Shown piece after piece: positions 24,001 to 30,000 of a stretch of DNA of 64,000 bases. A program made the position numbers. Source of the stretch: Escherichia coli (GTDB lineage Bacteria > Pseudomonadota > Gammaproteobacteria > Enterobacterales > Enterobacteriaceae); NCBI RefSeq assembly GCF_017348835.2, contig NZ_CP071375.1. The stretch is one strand, 5' to 3'. Each line of letters opens with the position of its first letter. The stretch's first letter is position 1.

Positions 24001-27000
24001 AACGCATTAGGTATCGTCGGAAAAACCTCAAACACACCCAAAGGTCTCTTGCTAAAGCCCTGAAAATCTCCCATGTGTCTGTATCACAATGGGAACGGGA
24101 TGATAGTGAACCTACAGGGAAGAACCTTTTTGCCCTCAGCAAAGTATTGCAATGCTCACCAACATGGATTCTATTTGGCGATGAAGACAAGCAACCAACA
24201 CCACCTGTTGAGAAGCCAGTTGCCTTATCCCCCAAAGAACTAGAGCTCCTTGAGCTGTTTAATGCACTGCCAGAATCAGAACAGGATACCCAGCTCGCCG
24301 AAATGCGAGCTCGAGTAAAAAACTTCAATAAACTCTTTGAAGAATTACTAAAAGCCCGTCAGCGGACAAATAAAAGATAACATCATCAATGAGTTATCTT
24401 TTACCACATCAATCATGTTAGCCATAACATACAAAATCACTTGACCTATATGTTAGCCATGGCTAATCTTATTTGCATCAACACACCGCACGGTGTTCTC
24501 AGCAAACAGTTCCGCTACCCCGGCGTTAAGGGGAAATGAGGTCAACATGGATACTATCGATCTTGGCAACAGCGAATCTCTGGTATGTGGCGTGTTCCCC
24601 AACCAGGACGGTACGTTCACCGCGATGACGTATACCAAAAGCAAAACGTTTAAAACCGAATCTGGAGCGCGTCGCTGGCTGGAAAGAAATTCAGGTGGGT
24701 GATATGGATTTCGACACAATCATGGAAAAGGCTTACGAAGAATACTTCGAAGGTCTTGCCGAAGGCGAAGAAGCTCTCAGCTTCAGCGAATTTAAACAGG
24801 CACTTTCCAGTTCGGCAAAATCTAACGGCTGATAAGCGAAACAGCACCGCGAGGAATCAGTATGCAGAAACGAGAACCCGTCATCATCGCGCCAGACTAT
24901 ACCGATGATGAACTTTATGAGTGGATGCGCCAGAAAATTAATGCAGCGCAGGATCTGAAATGGGCCAATGAAGCCAGGGCTAAGCAGGCTGAAAATCTGT
25001 CCGCTCTGGAGCAGGATATCACTAATCTGGAAAAAGCAGCGACATTAAGCATTGCCAGAATGATTACATACCCGCGTTAATAGCTAACCAACGAAGCTAA
25101 GGTTGGTAATTAAGGAGTTCTCCACGGATGAGGTGGAGTGCGTGCGCCGGACACGGGTGAGCATCCGGCACTGACAGTTTACTGAAAGGATATTTCCCTG
25201 AAAAGTCAGACCATAACGCGAAAGCGCACGGCGAGGTAGCTGGTTCATAGATAGCCTGTCGTTAAATTTTCGTCGACCGTGCGCTTCCGGTTGTGGCAAT
25301 CCGCGAAATGGCGCGGCGGTAAGTATGGCGGGGTTATTCCTTCCCCCGTTGAGGACACCGGGTTGTCAGGTTGACCATACGCTTAAGTGACAACCCCGCT
25401 GCAACGCCCTCTGTTATCAATTTTCTGGTGACGTTTGGCGGTATCAGTTTTACTCCGTGACTGCTCTGCCGCCCTTTTTAAAGTGAATTTTGTGATGTGG
25501 TGAATGCGGCTGAGCGCACGCGGAACAGTTAAAACCAAAAACAGTGTTATGGGTGGATTCTCTGTATCCGGCGTTAATTGTTAACTGGTTAACGTCACCT
25601 GGAGGCACCAGGCACTGCATCACAAAATTCATTGTTGAGGACGCGATAATGAAAACGTTATTACCAAACGTTAATACGTCTGAAGGTTGTTTTGAAATTG
25701 GTGTCACTATCAGTAACCCAGTATTTACTGAAGATGCCATTAACAAGAGAAAACAAGAACGGGAGCTATTAAATAAAATATGCATTGTTTCAATGCTGGC
25801 TCGTTTACGTCTGATGCCAAAAGGATGTGCACAATGAATTCAGCATTTGTGCTTGTTCTGACAGTTTTTCTTGTTTCCGGAGAGCCAGTTGATATTGCAG
25901 TCAGTGTTCACAGGACAATGCAGTAGTGTATGACTGCAGCAACCGAACAGAAAATTCCCGGTAACTGTTACCCGGTCGATAAAGTTATTCACCAGGATAA
26001 TATCGAAATCCCGGCAGGTCTTTAAAACAGTTCCGTAATAAATATCCGGTTTCATTCTTATATGCCAGCAATGGCAGGGATTTGTTCATCCTTAAATCTG
26101 TCATGAGGTTAAAACAAATGAGTAAAGTCTTTATTTGCGCCGCTATTCCTGACGAACTGGCAACAAGGGAAGAAGGCGCTGTGGCTGTAGCCACAGCCAT
26201 TGAAGCTGGCGACGAACGCCGTGCTCGAGCAAAATTTCACTGGCAATTCCTGGAACATTATCCGGCTGCTCAGGACTGCGCTTATAAATTTATTGTCTGC
26301 GAGGATAAACCTGGCATACCCCGCCCTGCCCTCGATTCATGGGATGCTGAATATATGCAGGAAAACCGCTGGGATGAGGATTCTGCTTCTTTTGTCCCGG
26401 TTGAGACTGAATCCGATCCGATGAACGTCACTTTTGACAAGCTGGCCCCTGAAGTACAGAACGCTGTCATGGTTAAGTTCGACACATGTGAAAACATCAC
26501 CGTTGATATGGTGATTAGCGCACAGGAATTGTTGCAGGAAGACATGGCAACATTCGACGGACATATCGTTGAAGCGTTGATGAAAATGCCAGAAGTTAAC
26601 GCCATGTATCCGGAGCTTAAGCTGCATGCCATCGGGTGGGTTAAGCATAAATGTAAGCCTGGTGCCAAATGGCCCGAAATTCAGGCAGAGATGCGCATCT
26701 GGAAAAAACGTCGCGAAGGTGAACGCAAGGAAACCGGAAAATACACGTCTGTTGTTGATCTCGCCCGCGCCAGAGTCAATCAACAGCACACTGAAAATTC
26801 AACAGGAAAAATCAGCCTGGTCATTGCTGCCATTCATCGCGAATACAAGCAGACATGGAAAACACTGGATGACGAACTGGCCTACGCTCTCTGGCCTGGT
26901 GATGTGGATGCCGGAAACATTGACGGCAGCATCCATCGCTGGGCAAAAAATGAAGTTATCGACAACTACCGCGAAGACTGGAAGCGTATCTCGGCATCAA

Positions 27001-30000
27001 TGCGCAAACAGCCTGATGCCCTTCGCTACGACCGCCAGACTATTTTTGGCCTTGTCCGTGAACGTCCGATCGACATTCACAAAGACCCTGTGGCACTGAA
27101 CAAATACATTACTGAATACCTGACTACAAAGGGCGTGTTTGAAGATGAAGGAACAAATCAGAGCGCAACTGATACTCTCTCGTCGCCAGTACCAGAAACT
27201 GATGCAGTGGAAACGGCAATTCCGGACAACGAAAAAACCGAATGCAAAGTGGAAGTCGAACCATCTGTAGAGCGTGAGGGGCCGTTCTACTTCCTCTTCA
27301 CCGACAAGGATGGCGAAAAATACGGTCGCGCAAACAAACTTTCTGGTCTGGATAAGGCACTGGCTGCCGGGGCTACTGAAATCACGAAAGAAGAATATTT
27401 CGCCCGCAAAAACGGTACATACTCAGGTTCACAACAAAATACTGGTGCATCTGACACGACCGCACAACCAGAGCCGGTAAAAGTTACCGCTGACGAAGTA
27501 AACAAAATTATGCAGGCAGCCAATATCAGCCAGCCTGACGCCGATAAGTTGCTTGCTGCCTCTCGCGGAGAATTTGTTGCAGGGATCAGCGACCCGAATG
27601 ATCCGAAATGGGTTAAGGGGATCCAGACCCGCGATTCTGTAAACCAGAACCAGCATGAATCGGAACGGAACTACCAAAAAGCGGAACAAAACAGCCCAAA
27701 TGCGTTACAAAACGAGCCAGAAACGAAACAACCTGAACCAGTAGTGCAACAGGAACCGGAAAAGATCTGCACCGCCTGCGGTCAGAGCGGTGGCGGCAAC
27801 TGCCCTGATTGTGGTGCGGTGATGGGTGACGCAACATACCAGGAAATATTCGATGGAGAGAATCAGCCTGAAGTTCAGGAAAATGATCCGGAGGAAATGG
27901 AAGGCACTGCGCATCAGCACAAGGAGAACACTGGCGGCAATCAGCATCATGCCAGCGATAGTGAAACTGGCGAGGCGTCAGATCCCTTAATTAAGGCGAA
28001 CAGTCATCATAATCTCACATCCACCAGCAGAGCGGGGATTCATCTGATGATCGACCTTGAAACCATGGGAAAAAATCCCGATGCCCCGATTATCTCAATA
28101 GGTGCAATATTTTTCGATCCGCAAACCGGAGATATGGGACCGGAATTTAGTAAGACTATCGATCTGGAAACTGCTGGCGGAGTCATTGATCGGGACACCA
28201 TTAAATGGTGGCTTAAACAATCACGCGAAGCGCAATCTGCCATTATGGCCGATGAAATCCCGTTAGATGATGCACTGTTACAATTGCGGGAATTTATCGA
28301 CGAAAACTCCGGTGAATTTTTTGTTCATGTCTGGGGAAATGGAGCCAACTTCGACAACACGATTTTGCGCCGTTCATACGAACGGCAGGGGATCCCCTGC
28401 CCGTGGCGTTACTACAACGATCGCGATGTACGCACAATCGTTGAGCTGGGGAAAGCCATAGACTTCGATGCCAGAACGGCTATTCCATTCGAAGGTGAGC
28501 GCCATAATGCACTTGATGACGCCCGTTACCAGGCAAAATACGTTTCAGCTATCTGGCAAAAACTGATCCCGAGTCAGGCTGATTTTTAATGTTCAACCCT
28601 AATTGCCGCTAACCGTATATAGTTAGCGGCGGTTATGAGATATAGCTATGAGCAGCTTATTTTTAACCGAAGATGAATTGCTAATATTAACGGGCTGCAA
28701 ATATGCAAGCCACCAGCGAAAATGGTTAATGGAAAACGGGCTTCCGTTCTATACCAATCGTAGTGGCAAACCGATTGTCAGCCGGGAGCTATTTACCTGC
28801 AATAAAACTTTACCACCACGCGAGGTAGAGCCGAATTTTGGTGCGATCTGATGGGAAGACGAAGGAAAAATCCTGAACACGAAAAATTACCTCCAAATGT
28901 ATACCCAAATAAATATAGTTATGTATGGAAACCAACATCCAGAGAATCTGTAACACTAACCGCCATCAAGGATGGTTTAGCTGCTTTATGGAAAAAGTAT
29001 GAGGAAACTGTAAATAATCGCGATCGTGCAATGACATTCGGTCGCTTGTGGGAAAAATTCCTCGCCAGCGCCTATTACAGTGACCTCAGTCCAAGAACAC
29101 AAAAAGATTATCTGCAACATCAAAAAAAGTTGCTTGCCGTATTCGGTAAGGTGCCGGCAGATTCCATAAAACCAGAACACATCCGTCGATACATGGACAA
29201 GAGAGGGGAGCAGAGTAAAACGCAAGCCAACCATGAAAAAAGCAGTATGTCCCGCGTTTACAGTTGGGGGTATGAGCGAGGGTACGTGAAGGGTAACCCA
29301 TGTGCAGGTGTAAGTAAATTCAAGGCCAAAAACCGCGAACGATATGTAACCGACAAAGAATACCAGGCAGTATTAAGCGTTGCACCTCTTCCTGTTTTTA
29401 TCGCAATGGAAATTGCCTATCTGTGTGCAGCGAGGGTTTCCGATGTGTTATCGCTGAAATGGGAGCAGATTGGAAACGACGGGATCTTTATCCAGCAAGG
29501 GAAAACAGGAAAAAAACAGATAAAAGCATGGAGTCCACGATTACAGGCGGCGATCGAAAAAGCAAAACAGTTACCAACATCCGCCTATGTAATCAGCAAT
29601 CAATACGGCAACCGATATATGTACAAAGGCTTTAACGAAATGTGGGTAGAAGCAAGAAATCGCGCAGGCAAAATTTCAGGTATTTTAACCGACTTCACCT
29701 TTCATGATCTGAAGGCGAAAGGAATTTCAGACTATGAAGGAAGCAGTCGGGATAAGCAACTTTTCTCTGGTCACAAAACCGAGGGGCAAGTGCTAATCTA
29801 TGACAGGAAGGTTAAAGTTTCACCGACACTTGATGTCCCGTTACCTGAAAATATTCCAAGAAAATATTCCAAGTAATTCCAAGTGTGATTTTTGTCACTG
29901 ACTTAATGATGTATAAGTGATTGAATTTTGGCGGAGAGAGGGGGATTTGAACCCCCGGTGGAGTTGCCCCCACTCCGGTTTTCGAGACCGGTCCGTTCAG

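What the first reader, a model, noticed from the sequence alone, without database searches (positions are those of the whole stretch)
26082..28589. Large early-region protein combining a Cys4 zinc-ribbon-like cluster with a C-terminal DEDD-type exonuclease domain
The 835-aa ORF sits where lambdoid recombination genes lie, but its C-terminus looks like a DnaQ-type 3'-5' exonuclease rather than the lambda Exo or RecE fold, and it has a central CTACGQSGGGNCPDCG cluster and acidic low-complexity linkers. Its role (recombination, anti-defence, or host takeover) is unclear.
Basis: partly seen in the sequence, partly recalled or inferred. Interest (0 to 1): 0.35.

Follow-up and report, generated by a model that had tools for sequence, protein, structure and literature searches.

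The report
RecE-like scaffold carrying DexA-type exonuclease
This very common E. coli prophage early gene encodes a RecE-like multi-domain protein in which the usual 5'-to-3' nuclease and its RecT partner are replaced by a phage-T4-DexA-like 3'-to-5' exonuclease; databases already list it, but I found no test of its role.

Summary
The gene is real. Its likely start is ATG 26118, giving 823 aa rather than 835. It is the last gene of the DicA-repressed dicF-dicB-ydfD early operon of a Qin-type lambdoid prophage, just before xis/int and tRNA-Ser.

The C-terminus is a DEDDh 3'-5' exonuclease (Pfam PF16473, E 1.5e-66). All five catalytic residues are present, and the closest solved structure is T4 DexA. 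The Cys4 cluster and the acidic disordered linkers are real.

Residues 1-256 are the intact form of the K-12 pseudogene ydfE. Residues 262-625, including the Cys4 ribbon, are homologous to the non-nuclease part of Rac RecE. Relatives carry the same scaffold with a RecE-type nuclease, a probable Rad52-like annealase, or this DEDD domain.

RecE-nuclease versions always have RecT downstream (80/80 loci). DEDD versions never have an annealase nearby (0/80). The DEDD domain is in 75% of complete E. coli genomes, against 32% for the RecE nuclease domain.

Best reading: a scaffold-tethered DNA 3'-end exonuclease that works without a dedicated annealase. Its biological role is unresolved.

The family is catalogued (RefSeq, PHROG 2082, Pfam) but I found no functional study. 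It is a new variant of a known kind, of moderate interest.

The parts
26118..28589 (+). Coding sequence of the 823-aa protein, stop codon included. The mechanical ORF begins at TTG 26082.
   Evidence: RefSeq WP_207184222.1 and PHROG 2082 both start at this ATG. GAGG lies at 26105-26108.
26118..26783 (+). N-terminal YdfE module (aa 1-222): a small alpha/beta subdomain (about aa 1-100) followed by a helical subdomain (about aa 105-220). These probably correspond to Pfam YdfE_N and YdfE_C respectively (inferred from P0122, not read from Pfam coordinates). It is the intact counterpart of the K-12 ydfE pseudogene.
26850..27152 (+). Helical module (aa 245-345) shared with Rac RecE (RecE about 278-360).
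   Evidence: dN/dS 0.12.
27270..27422 (+). Small beta-beta-alpha-beta-alpha domain (aa 385-435, GPFYFLF...KEEYFARKNG). It is present in YdfE-type relatives but not aligned in the RecE-N-type rows, including K-12 RecE.
   Evidence: pLDDT 89-95. Conserved across distant representatives. dN/dS 0.09.
27489..27632 (+). Conserved motif region (aa 458-505, [24 protein letters not shown]). It is shared by the RecE-nuclease and DEDD versions aligned here.
   Evidence: dN/dS 0.16.
27762..27845 (+). Cys4 zinc-ribbon-like element (aa 549-576; Cys 551, 554, 562, 565). It is also present in Rac RecE.
   Evidence: The Pfam DZR (double zinc ribbon) hit is only E 0.14. The element is absent from some DEDD-type relatives.
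27846..28037 (+). Acidic disordered linker (aa 577-640) that ends at the junction with the exonuclease domain.
   Evidence: Net charge down to -10 per 30 aa. pLDDT below 50. dN/dS 0.78.
28038..28586 (+). DEDDh 3'-5' exonuclease domain (aa 641-823). Catalytic residues: D646, E648, D746, H796, D801.
   Evidence: dN/dS 0.12.
25423..26025 (+). Upstream genes of the same early operon: DicF sRNA (25423-25474), dicB (25649-25837) and ydfD (25834-26025, internal stop).
   Evidence: Rfam DicF at 76.7 bits. RefSeq annotation. No convincing terminator before the gene. Operon structure and DicA repression come from bioRxiv 10.1101/2024.09.21.614188.
28648..30018 (.). Downstream prophage end: DUF4224 excisionase-like gene (28648-28851, +), integrase (28851-29876, +) and the tRNA-Ser attachment site (29929-30018, -).

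Best explanation
The gene encodes a modular prophage early protein. A RecE-family scaffold makes up aa 1-640: the YdfE N-terminal domains, helical and small folded modules, a conserved motif and a Cys4 ribbon, strung on disordered linkers. This scaffold carries a T4-DexA-like DEDDh exonuclease in place of the RecE PD-(D/E)xK nuclease.

Inferred mechanism. When DicA repression is lifted, the gene is transcribed with dicF, dicB and ydfD. The C-terminal domain uses the two-metal DEDDh chemistry (D646, E648, D746, H796, D801) to remove nucleotides from free 3' ends, most probably of DNA. The scaffold holds the nuclease at whatever partner or substrate the RecE N-terminal region also recognises; that target is unknown.

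The protein acts without a dedicated annealase, so it is not a RecET or Red-type two-component recombinase. The likeliest biological output is 3'-end processing or degradation of linear DNA during prophage induction, a DexA-like role, rather than production of 3' tails for annealing.

Shown: domain identity, catalytic residues, fold, mosaic relationship to RecE and YdfE, absence of a neighbouring annealase, purifying selection and operon position. Inferred: activity, DNA as substrate, tethering by the scaffold, and the biological role.
For: Domain identity and fold:
- Pfam PF16473, E 1.5e-66, full-length profile match.
- All DEDDh residues are conserved in every exonuclease-domain row aligned: the fused DEDD-type proteins, standalone phage homologues and DexA.
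- AlphaFold2 gives pLDDT above 90 for the domain. Foldseek's best solved match is T4 DexA, a DNA exonuclease (E 1.8e-10, TM 0.65-0.73), followed by RNase T and oligoribonuclease.
- DexA is also the only PDB entry found by sequence alone.

DNA context:
- Standalone homologues in other phages lie beside DNA polymerase, helicase or SSB genes.

Mosaic origin:
- Relatives combine two N-terminal modules with at least four C-terminal domains, including a RecE-type nuclease and a probable Rad52-like annealase.
- The fusion point coincides with the N-terminus of the standalone gene: 'MNNLMIDLET' against '...GIHLMIDLET'.

No partner annealase:
- 0 of 80 DEDD-type loci carry RecT, Bet, Exo or Gam within 7 kb, and there is none in the window.
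- 80 of 80 RecE-nuclease loci have recT overlapping the gene end.
- A distant YdfE_N + RecE-nuclease protein is also followed by a RecT-family gene.

Selection and abundance:
- dN/dS is 0.09-0.21 in every folded module and 0.4-1.05 in the linkers.
- The DEDD domain occurs in 4068 of 5426 complete E. coli genomes.
Against: - No biochemical or genetic data exist for this protein or any fused relative.
- DEDDh enzymes often act on RNA. The Pfam family is named after a mycobacterial exoribonuclease, and RefSeq calls many copies '3'-5' exoribonuclease'.
- The scaffold has no recognisable fold relative, so 'tethering' is inference.
- A 3'-5' polarity would destroy the 3' tails that recombination needs, so a pro-recombination role is not obvious.
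- The 80+80 loci used for the annealase contrast are close relatives, not independent lineages.
Confidence: 0.55

Rival explanations
1. Superinfection-exclusion or defence nuclease of the 'HREX' type. Like the E. coli DexA homologue EcD, the domain would degrade incoming modified (5hmC) DNA of T-even phages while sparing host DNA, and so protect the lysogen.
For: PMC12153337 reports that plasmid-borne EcD, a standalone E. coli DexA homologue, digests T4 DNA and protects against T4. It also reports that Escherichia holds the largest share of bacterial DexA homologues. This domain is DexA-like by sequence and fold. The gene is kept intact in defective prophages, including this one.
Against: - EcD is a different, single-domain protein. 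Its cloning primers give MIDTET... at the start and ...TIPETY at the end, and no such gene is in the window.
- The DexA residues proposed for 5hmC recognition are not kept: W152 aligns with Tyr766, and D169 lies in a loop that aligns unreliably.
- The Asp that EcD has lost (DexA D90) is retained here as D718.
- The gene lies in a DicA-repressed operon, so it should be off in a stable lysogen.
- PADLOC gives only a generic DEDDh hit, E 1e-5.
- The RecE-like scaffold is unexplained by this model.
Confidence: 0.15
2. A conventional recombination exonuclease. It would do the RecE job, working with an annealase supplied in trans (another prophage's RecT or Bet) or with host RecA.
For: It occupies the position of recE or exo. 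It shares the RecE scaffold. The same scaffold is fused to a RecE nuclease and to a probable Rad52-like annealase in relatives. T4 DexA is reported to take part in double-strand-break processing during intron homing (abstract of PMC12153337). The prophage keeps a RusA resolvase.
Against: The polarity is opposite to that of every known SynExo exonuclease, so it cannot make the 3' tail an annealase needs. No annealase is linked in 80 of 80 loci, whereas RecE-type genes always have one.
Confidence: 0.12
3. An exoribonuclease. The domain would trim or degrade RNA 3' ends (host mRNA, tRNA or sRNA, or the operon's own DicF precursor) as part of host takeover.
For: The Pfam family is typified by Rv2179c, a 3'-5' exoribonuclease. 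Fold neighbours include RNase T, oligoribonuclease and 3'hExo. DicF sRNA is encoded in the same operon.
Against: The closest characterised relative, by both sequence and structure, is the DNA exonuclease DexA. Rv2179c itself does not appear among the sequence or top fold hits. Homologues sit in DNA-replication gene neighbourhoods. The scaffold is otherwise attached to DNA-recombination enzymes.
Confidence: 0.08
4. A decaying remnant with no current function, left by a deletion that removed the RecE nuclease domain and recT.
For: The prophage in the window is defective, with an IS3 insertion and frameshifted portal, capsid and integrase genes in the matching RefSeq genome. The K-12 copy is a pseudogene.
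Against: Every folded module is under strong purifying selection (dN/dS 0.09-0.21). Catalytic residues are intact in 76 of 77 copies. There are 8104 copies in 4068 genomes, and inducible phages carry the gene.
Confidence: 0.02

Closest known systems
RecE (exodeoxyribonuclease VIII) of the Rac prophage, E. coli K-12
   Same: Same genomic position, last large gene of the early-left operon before xis/int. The central region is homologous (aa 262-625 match RecE 278-591, E 4e-60) and includes the motif [23 protein letters not shown] and the Cys4 ribbon. Both have long acidic linkers and an N-terminal part of unknown function.
   Different: The C-terminal PD-(D/E)xK 5'-3' nuclease is replaced by a DEDDh 3'-5' exonuclease. 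There is no RecT. The first 260 aa belong to a different module (YdfE rather than Exonuc_VIII). The NCBIfam RecE equivalog score is 275 against a cut-off of 1269.
T4 DexA (exonuclease A; PDB 8KEL/8KEN)
   Same: It is the closest solved structure by both sequence and fold. The DEDDh catalytic residues are the same. It is a phage-encoded 3'-5' DNA exonuclease.
   Different: DexA is a 227-aa single-domain protein with extra loops. Identity is only about 20-30%. W152 aligns with Tyr here, and the D169 loop differs. DexA has no scaffold.
EcD / 'HREX' bacterial DexA homologue (PMC12153337)
   Same: An E. coli DexA-family DEDDh exonuclease with conserved catalytic residues.
   Different: EcD is standalone, starting MIDTET and ending TIPETY, and is a different gene. 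Its proposed specificity residues are not matched here. Defence has not been shown for the fused protein.
K-12 ydfE (Qin prophage pseudogene, b1577)
   Same: 98% identical over aa 1-256, and in the same operon position after dicB and ydfD.
   Different: The K-12 copy is cut by IS2 after residue 256 and lacks all downstream modules. The window holds the intact gene.
Rv2179c / RNase AS of M. tuberculosis (type member of Pfam PF16473)
   Same: Same Pfam family and DEDDh fold.
   Different: It is a single-domain bacterial exoribonuclease. It was not retrieved by the PDB sequence searches and is not among the 50 listed fold matches, so it is more distant than DexA.
Standalone prophage DEDD exonucleases (e.g. 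Escherichia phage PhiR40_1, 190 aa)
   Same: 60% identical to aa 641-823. They also lie at the att-proximal end of the early-left region.
   Different: They are not fused to any scaffold. They probably represent the ancestral free gene.

Membership tests
DEDDh (DnaQ-like) 3'-5' exonucleases / Pfam PF16473 Rv2179c-like | Profile match above the curated threshold over the whole domain | tested here: met
   223.9 bits against a cut-off of 27, E 1.5e-66, profile positions 2-177 of 177.
DEDDh (DnaQ-like) 3'-5' exonucleases / Pfam PF16473 Rv2179c-like | Exo I (DxE), Exo II (D) and Exo III (H-x4-D) catalytic residues | tested here: met
   D646 and E648 (IDLET), D746 (NFD), H796 and D801 (HNALDD). They are conserved in all exonuclease rows of alignment A3, including DexA D7, E9, D119, H186 and D191. 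They are intact in 76 of 77 related copies.
DEDDh (DnaQ-like) 3'-5' exonucleases / Pfam PF16473 Rv2179c-like | RNase-H-like alpha/beta exonuclease fold | tested here: met
   AlphaFold2 pLDDT above 90 for aa 641-820. Foldseek finds 111 PDB matches at E 1e-3 or better. The top hits are DexA, RNase T, 3'hExo and oligoribonuclease.
DEDDh (DnaQ-like) 3'-5' exonucleases / Pfam PF16473 Rv2179c-like | Metal-dependent 3'-5' exonuclease activity | not testable with these tools
   Needs purified protein and labelled substrates.
RecE / exodeoxyribonuclease VIII (two-component SynExo recombinase) | NCBIfam equivalog PRK09709 score above its cut-off | tested here: not met
   274.9 bits against a cut-off of 1269. 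Only profile positions 271-603 of 877 are matched.
RecE / exodeoxyribonuclease VIII (two-component SynExo recombinase) | C-terminal PD-(D/E)xK 5'-3' nuclease domain (RecE 600-866, DUF3799) | tested here: not met
   No BLASTP or phmmer match to RecE 600-866. The region is occupied by the DEDD domain.
RecE / exodeoxyribonuclease VIII (two-component SynExo recombinase) | Adjacent partner annealase (RecT) | tested here: not met
   No RecT, Bet or Rad52-like hit in the window or in 80 DEDD-type loci. RecE-nuclease loci have RecT in 80 of 80 cases.
RecE / exodeoxyribonuclease VIII (two-component SynExo recombinase) | Homology to the RecE non-nuclease region | tested here: met
   aa 262-625 match RecE 278-591, E 4e-60. 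Identity is near 85% over aa 475-625, which includes the Cys4 ribbon.
HREX (DexA/EcD 5hmC-recognising exonuclease; PMC12153337) | DexA-like domain with conserved catalytic residues | tested here: met
HREX (DexA/EcD 5hmC-recognising exonuclease; PMC12153337) | Residues proposed for 5hmC recognition (DexA W152 and D169) | tested here: not met
   W152 aligns with Tyr766 (Trp in most standalone homologues, Cys in two fused ones). D169 falls in a DexA-specific loop, aligned to a gap or to Ala depending on the alignment.
HREX (DexA/EcD 5hmC-recognising exonuclease; PMC12153337) | Loss of the tetramer-forming Asp (DexA D90 is Ala in EcD) | tested here: not met
   The aligned residue is Asp718.
HREX (DexA/EcD 5hmC-recognising exonuclease; PMC12153337) | Protection against T-even phage; preference for 5hmC DNA | not testable with these tools
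   Requires plaque assays and nuclease assays.
Cys4 zinc ribbon | Two CxxC knuckles on beta-hairpins, with conserved Cys ligands | tested here: inconclusive
   CxxC-x7-CxxC. The four Cys are kept in 75 of 77 copies and in RecE, while the spacer residues vary. Short strands are predicted at pLDDT about 53-70. The Pfam DZR hit is E 0.14, below threshold. Some DEDD-type relatives lack the element. Metal binding was not tested.

The most novel reading that the evidence does not exclude
The YdfE/RecE N-terminal region may be a dedicated targeting scaffold. It would deliver interchangeable DNA-end enzymes (5'-3' exonuclease, 3'-5' exonuclease, Rad52-like annealase, and one unknown domain) to a common, still unidentified cellular target. 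The DEDD version is by far the most abundant in E. coli. It would then not be a recombinase at all but an antagonist: a nuclease that erases the 3' tails or linear DNA of competing phages or of host repair intermediates. That would be a new kind of inter-phage competition or defence function encoded in the early operon.
Probability: 0.12. Interest if true: 0.7.

Novelty: new variant of a known kind. Interest (0 to 1): 0.4.

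Why it matters
RecE/RecT is a workhorse of recombineering, yet the 590-residue N-terminal part of RecE still has no known function. This locus shows that the same scaffold is reused in E. coli prophages with different enzymatic domains attached.

The most frequent version is not RecE. The DEDD exonuclease domain, which comes without an annealase, is in 75% of complete genomes and up to 7 copies per genome. The RecE nuclease domain is in 32%.

Working out what the scaffold binds, and why a nuclease of opposite polarity is favoured, would clarify lambdoid early-region biology. It would also test the recent claim that bacterial DexA homologues are anti-T4 defences, and it could give new parts for DNA engineering. 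If the protein turns out to be a plain accessory exonuclease, the finding is ordinary.

Tried and rejected
- Literature. Searches for Rv2179c + phage, ydfE + exonuclease, RecE + DEDD + prophage, dicB + ydfD + exonuclease, DEDDh + lambdoid, and YdfE + Qin found no functional study of this protein.
- Recovering the EcD sequence. The published primers gave no real match in the window, and the reverse primer hit one unrelated IMG/VR contig. EcD could therefore be compared only through the residues described in the paper.
- PADLOC gave only a generic CRISPR-associated DEDDh hit, E 1e-5.
- The promoter and terminator scan found no more sites than shuffled sequence gave.
- The first homologue search was saturated by sequences at least 89% identical. 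Diversity came from the 50%-cluster search instead.
- The pairwise MAFFT alignment with DexA mis-paired the Exo III motif (DexA H186 and D191 aligned with R786 and N797 here). The 23-sequence alignment corrected it.
- TTG 26082 was rejected as the start, and the pseudogene/remnant reading was rejected on dN/dS.

Full report
**1. The observation**

The window has an open frame at 26082-28589 (+) of 835 codons from a TTG. The likely start is ATG 26118, giving 823 aa. A GAGG lies 9 nt upstream. RefSeq annotates an identical gene in E. coli PE164 from that ATG as WP_207184222.1, 'exonuclease'. PHROG 2082 (823 positions, 'exonuclease') aligns end to end from ORF residue 13. Numbering below follows the 823-aa protein.

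- **DEDD domain.** Pfam PF16473 (Rv2179c-like 3'-5' exoribonuclease domain) matches at 223.9 bits, E 1.5e-66, over the whole profile.
- **Cys4 cluster.** C551-x2-C554-x7-C562-x2-C565.
- **Acidic linkers.** Net charge reaches -10 per 30 residues. AlphaFold2 pLDDT is below 50 there.

**2. Genomic setting**

The window matches the chromosome of E. coli PE164. The gene belongs to a Qin/DicB-type lambdoid prophage integrated at tRNA-Ser next to mtfA. The order is: dicC (leftward), then dicA, ydfA, ydfB, ydfC, DicF sRNA (Rfam, 25423-25474), dicB, ydfD, this gene, a DUF4224 excisionase-like gene, integrase, and tRNA-Ser.

In K-12 Qin the same slot holds the pseudogene ydfE, cut by IS2. Its first 256 residues are 98% identical to this protein, so the window carries the intact form of ydfE. 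A preprint states that the dicB promoter transcribes dicB, ydfD, ydfE and onward, and that DicA represses it (bioRxiv 10.1101/2024.09.21.614188). The consensus scan found no convincing terminator before the gene. The gene is therefore an early-left, repressor-controlled gene. It sits where Rac has recE-recT and lambda has exo-bet-gam.

**3. Anatomy**

Two structure predictions and a region-by-region dN/dS analysis on 28 distinct full-length copies agree on the following layout.

| Residues | Module | pLDDT | dN/dS |
|---|---|---|---|
| 1-222 | alpha/beta subdomain plus helical subdomain (probably Pfam YdfE_N and YdfE_C; names) | above 90 | 0.15 |
| 245-345 | helical module | about 88-96 | 0.12 |
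| 385-435 | small beta-beta-alpha-beta-alpha domain | 89-95 | 0.09 |
| 458-505 | conserved motif [24 protein letters not shown] | 57-81 | 0.16 |
| 549-576 | Cys4 ribbon | about 53-70 | 0.21 |
| 577-640 | acidic linker | below 50 | 0.78 |
| 641-823 | DEDD exonuclease domain | above 90 | 0.12 |

The linkers evolve nearly neutrally (dN/dS 0.37-1.05). Every folded module is therefore maintained by selection, which rules out a decaying remnant.

**4. The nuclease domain**

- The catalytic set D646, E648 (Exo I), D746 (Exo II), and H796, D801 (Exo III, H-x4-D) is conserved in all exonuclease rows of a 23-sequence alignment. That alignment includes standalone phage homologues and T4 DexA, whose catalytic residues are given in PMC12153337.
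- A pairwise alignment had mis-paired Exo III. The multiple alignment corrects it.
- T4 DexA (PDB 8KEL/8KEN) is the only PDB hit by sequence (E 6.6e-6).
- DexA is also the best fold match (E 1.8e-10, TM 0.65-0.73). RNase T, 3'hExo and oligoribonuclease follow.
- Rv2179c itself was not retrieved in the sequence searches or the listed fold matches.
- tblastn finds the domain in 1243 phage records, mostly as a gene of about 170-200 aa. In the records I inspected it lies next to a DNA polymerase, a helicase or an SSB gene.
- In the temperate phage PhiR40_1 a 190-aa version, 60% identical, sits at the att-proximal end of the early region. It begins MNNLMIDLET, which is where the fused domain begins (GIHLMIDLET).

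Together these point to a DNA-directed 3'-5' exonuclease that was once a free gene.

**5. Relationship to RecE**

NCBIfam's RecE equivalog matches only partially: 275 bits against a cut-off of 1269, profile positions 271-603. BLASTP against K-12 RecE aligns aa 262-625 with RecE 278-591 (E 4e-60). The match is nearly identical over aa 475-625, including [26 protein letters not shown].

Homology stops about where the RecE nuclease domain starts. A 2023 review puts that domain at residues 564-866 and calls the N-terminal part 'of unknown function' (PMC11611040). The Cys4 ribbon is thus part of a scaffold shared with RecE, not a feature peculiar to this protein. Three more distant DEDD-type relatives lack it.

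**6. A modular family**

An exhaustive search of 1.84 billion cluster representatives with aa 1-640 found only 243 clusters, so the scaffold family is narrow. Mapping modules on the long members shows two alternative N-terminal modules: the YdfE type, and the RecE type (Pfam Exonuc_VIII). Both combine with shared middle modules and at least four alternative C-termini.

- **The DEDD domain.** One example, P0128, has a RecE N-terminus and sits in a Rac-like prophage with the same xis/int at mtfA.
- **The RecE-type PD-(D/E)xK nuclease.**
- **A domain found in at least 13 representatives.** Its signature KKSLTDAIKKALSxLGFSADVWLGLYD resembles the Rad52 annealase helix as I recall it. It gives weak Rad52_Rad22 hits in 7 of 12 members (best E 0.0022, below threshold). 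Its neighbouring gene is a Sipho_Gp157 gene, a family I recall accompanying Sak/Erf-type annealases.
- **An unassigned domain (PHROG 26058).**

**7. Partner annealase**

| Locus set | Annealase nearby |
|---|---|
| 80 IMG/VR loci with the DEDD domain (51 YdfE-type N-terminus, 23 RecE-type) | none: no RecT, Bet, lambda Exo, Gam, RecE nuclease or Rad52-like domain in the sequence held (7 kb upstream; downstream mostly about 1.4-2.9 kb, to the contig end) |
| The 64-kb window | none |
| 80 loci with the RecE nuclease domain | all have recT overlapping the gene end |
| A distant YdfE_N + RecE-nuclease protein | followed by a RecT-family gene, E 2e-36 |

The two sets of 80 are close relatives, so this is a strong association but not 160 independent events.

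**8. Abundance**

- The DEDD-domain DNA occurs in 4068 of 5426 complete E. coli genomes: 8104 copies, up to 7 per genome.
- The RecE nuclease domain occurs in 1735 genomes, 1826 copies.
- Sequenced temperate phages, some of them isolates, carry the full gene: mEp460, Tritos, HannyBb, PhiR42_1, Evi and the PPompW prophages.

**9. Interpretation**

Shown:
- a selected, multi-module early protein;
- a DexA-like DEDDh domain with an intact active site;
- a scaffold shared with RecE and with other recombination enzymes;
- no linked annealase.

Inferred:
- the protein is an active 3'-5' exonuclease on DNA ends;
- the scaffold holds it at whatever target RecE's N-terminal part also addresses;
- it is made on derepression of the dicB operon.

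Its polarity removes rather than creates 3' tails. It therefore cannot be a RecET or Red-type recombinase exonuclease. A DexA-like role in end processing or DNA degradation is the most economical reading (confidence about 0.55).

**10. Rivals**

- **HREX-type defence against 5hmC phages.** It is suggested by PMC12153337. It is weakened because EcD is a different standalone protein. W152 aligns with Tyr, the D169 loop differs, and the Asp lost in EcD is retained here. The operon is also repressed in lysogens.
- **Conventional recombination role with an annealase in trans.** Polarity and the missing partner argue against it.
- **RNA-directed role.** The family name and the RNase neighbours in fold space support it. 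The closer kinship to DexA and the DNA-metabolism contexts argue against it.
- **Non-functional remnant.** Refuted by the selection analysis.

**11. Novelty and score**

The family is already catalogued. RefSeq calls it 'exonuclease' or '3'-5' exoribonuclease domain-containing protein'. It is PHROG 2082, with the Pfam architecture YdfE_N, YdfE_C, Rv2179c-like. It is sometimes mislabelled exodeoxyribonuclease VIII. I found no paper that tests it, or that describes the scaffold-swap relationship with RecE and the loss of RecT.

It is best rated as a new variant of a known kind: a known nuclease family in an uncharacterised architecture. Interest is moderate (0.4). It is ordinary as an annotation, but the gene is extremely widespread, untested, and bears on the old open question of what the RecE N-terminal region does.

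Noticed in passing
K-12 locus L004:4079-4999 compared with window 26118-26885: The K-12 Qin pseudogene ydfE is the IS2-truncated N-terminus (98% identity over 256 aa) of this 823-aa exonuclease gene. The window shows what the intact gene looks like.
   Followed up: yes
L010:5001-7927 (protein P0137 and relatives P0129, P0187, P0216 and others): A third, frequent class of YdfE-scaffold proteins ends in a domain with a Rad52-like signature (KKSLTDAIKKALSxLGFSADVWLGLYD; weak Rad52_Rad22 hits in 7 of 12 members). It is followed by a Sipho_Gp157 gene. This is probably an annealase fused to the same scaffold, and I know of no description of it.
   Followed up: partly
Protein P0125 aa 456-702 (also P0264, P0257): A fourth C-terminal domain on the same scaffold (PHROG 26058, unknown function) has no Pfam match.
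   Followed up: no
window 18917-21492: A low-GC insert (about 36% GC) lies between the prophage replication genes and the nin/Q region. It encodes a 231-aa hypothetical protein, a class I SAM-dependent methyltransferase and, on the opposite strand, a SMEK-domain protein. It may be defence or anti-defence cargo.
   Followed up: no
window 39244-43701 (- strand): The island integrated at tRNA-Asn (31010) has its own integrase at 31196-32497. In its low-GC stretch (37-38% GC), a LA2681-family HEPN-domain protein lies next to a 946-aa hypothetical protein, and a PemK/MazF toxin-antitoxin pair lies nearby. This looks like a defence-island arrangement.
   Followed up: no
window 38927-39132 (- strand): Rfam finds a C4 antisense RNA (83 bits), its a1/b1 target element and an isrK RNA next to each other. 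This is a P1/P7-type immunity RNA module, yet it lies in a chromosomal island rather than a P1-like phage.
   Followed up: no
window 10612-10728, 44096-44212, 57111-57227: There are three identical IS3-family copies, each with an ALIL frameshift pseudoknot scoring 120.3 bits. One interrupts the prophage late region and one interrupts yeeO. The matching RefSeq genome also marks the portal, capsid and integrase genes as frameshifted, so the prophage is defective although the exonuclease gene is intact.
   Followed up: partly
L007:6001-8418 (protein P0128): A Rac-like prophage (SieB, KilR, YdaE) carries a RecE N-terminus joined to the DEDD domain, with the same DUF4224/integrase/mtfA end as the window. 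This suggests the DEDD domain, xis and int move together as a cassette, by recombination within the conserved region around aa 471-640.
   Followed up: partly
window 18169-18343 and 13681-13853 (- strand): A hok/sok (hokD) toxin-antitoxin RNA and an STnc100 sRNA lie within the prophage.
   Followed up: no
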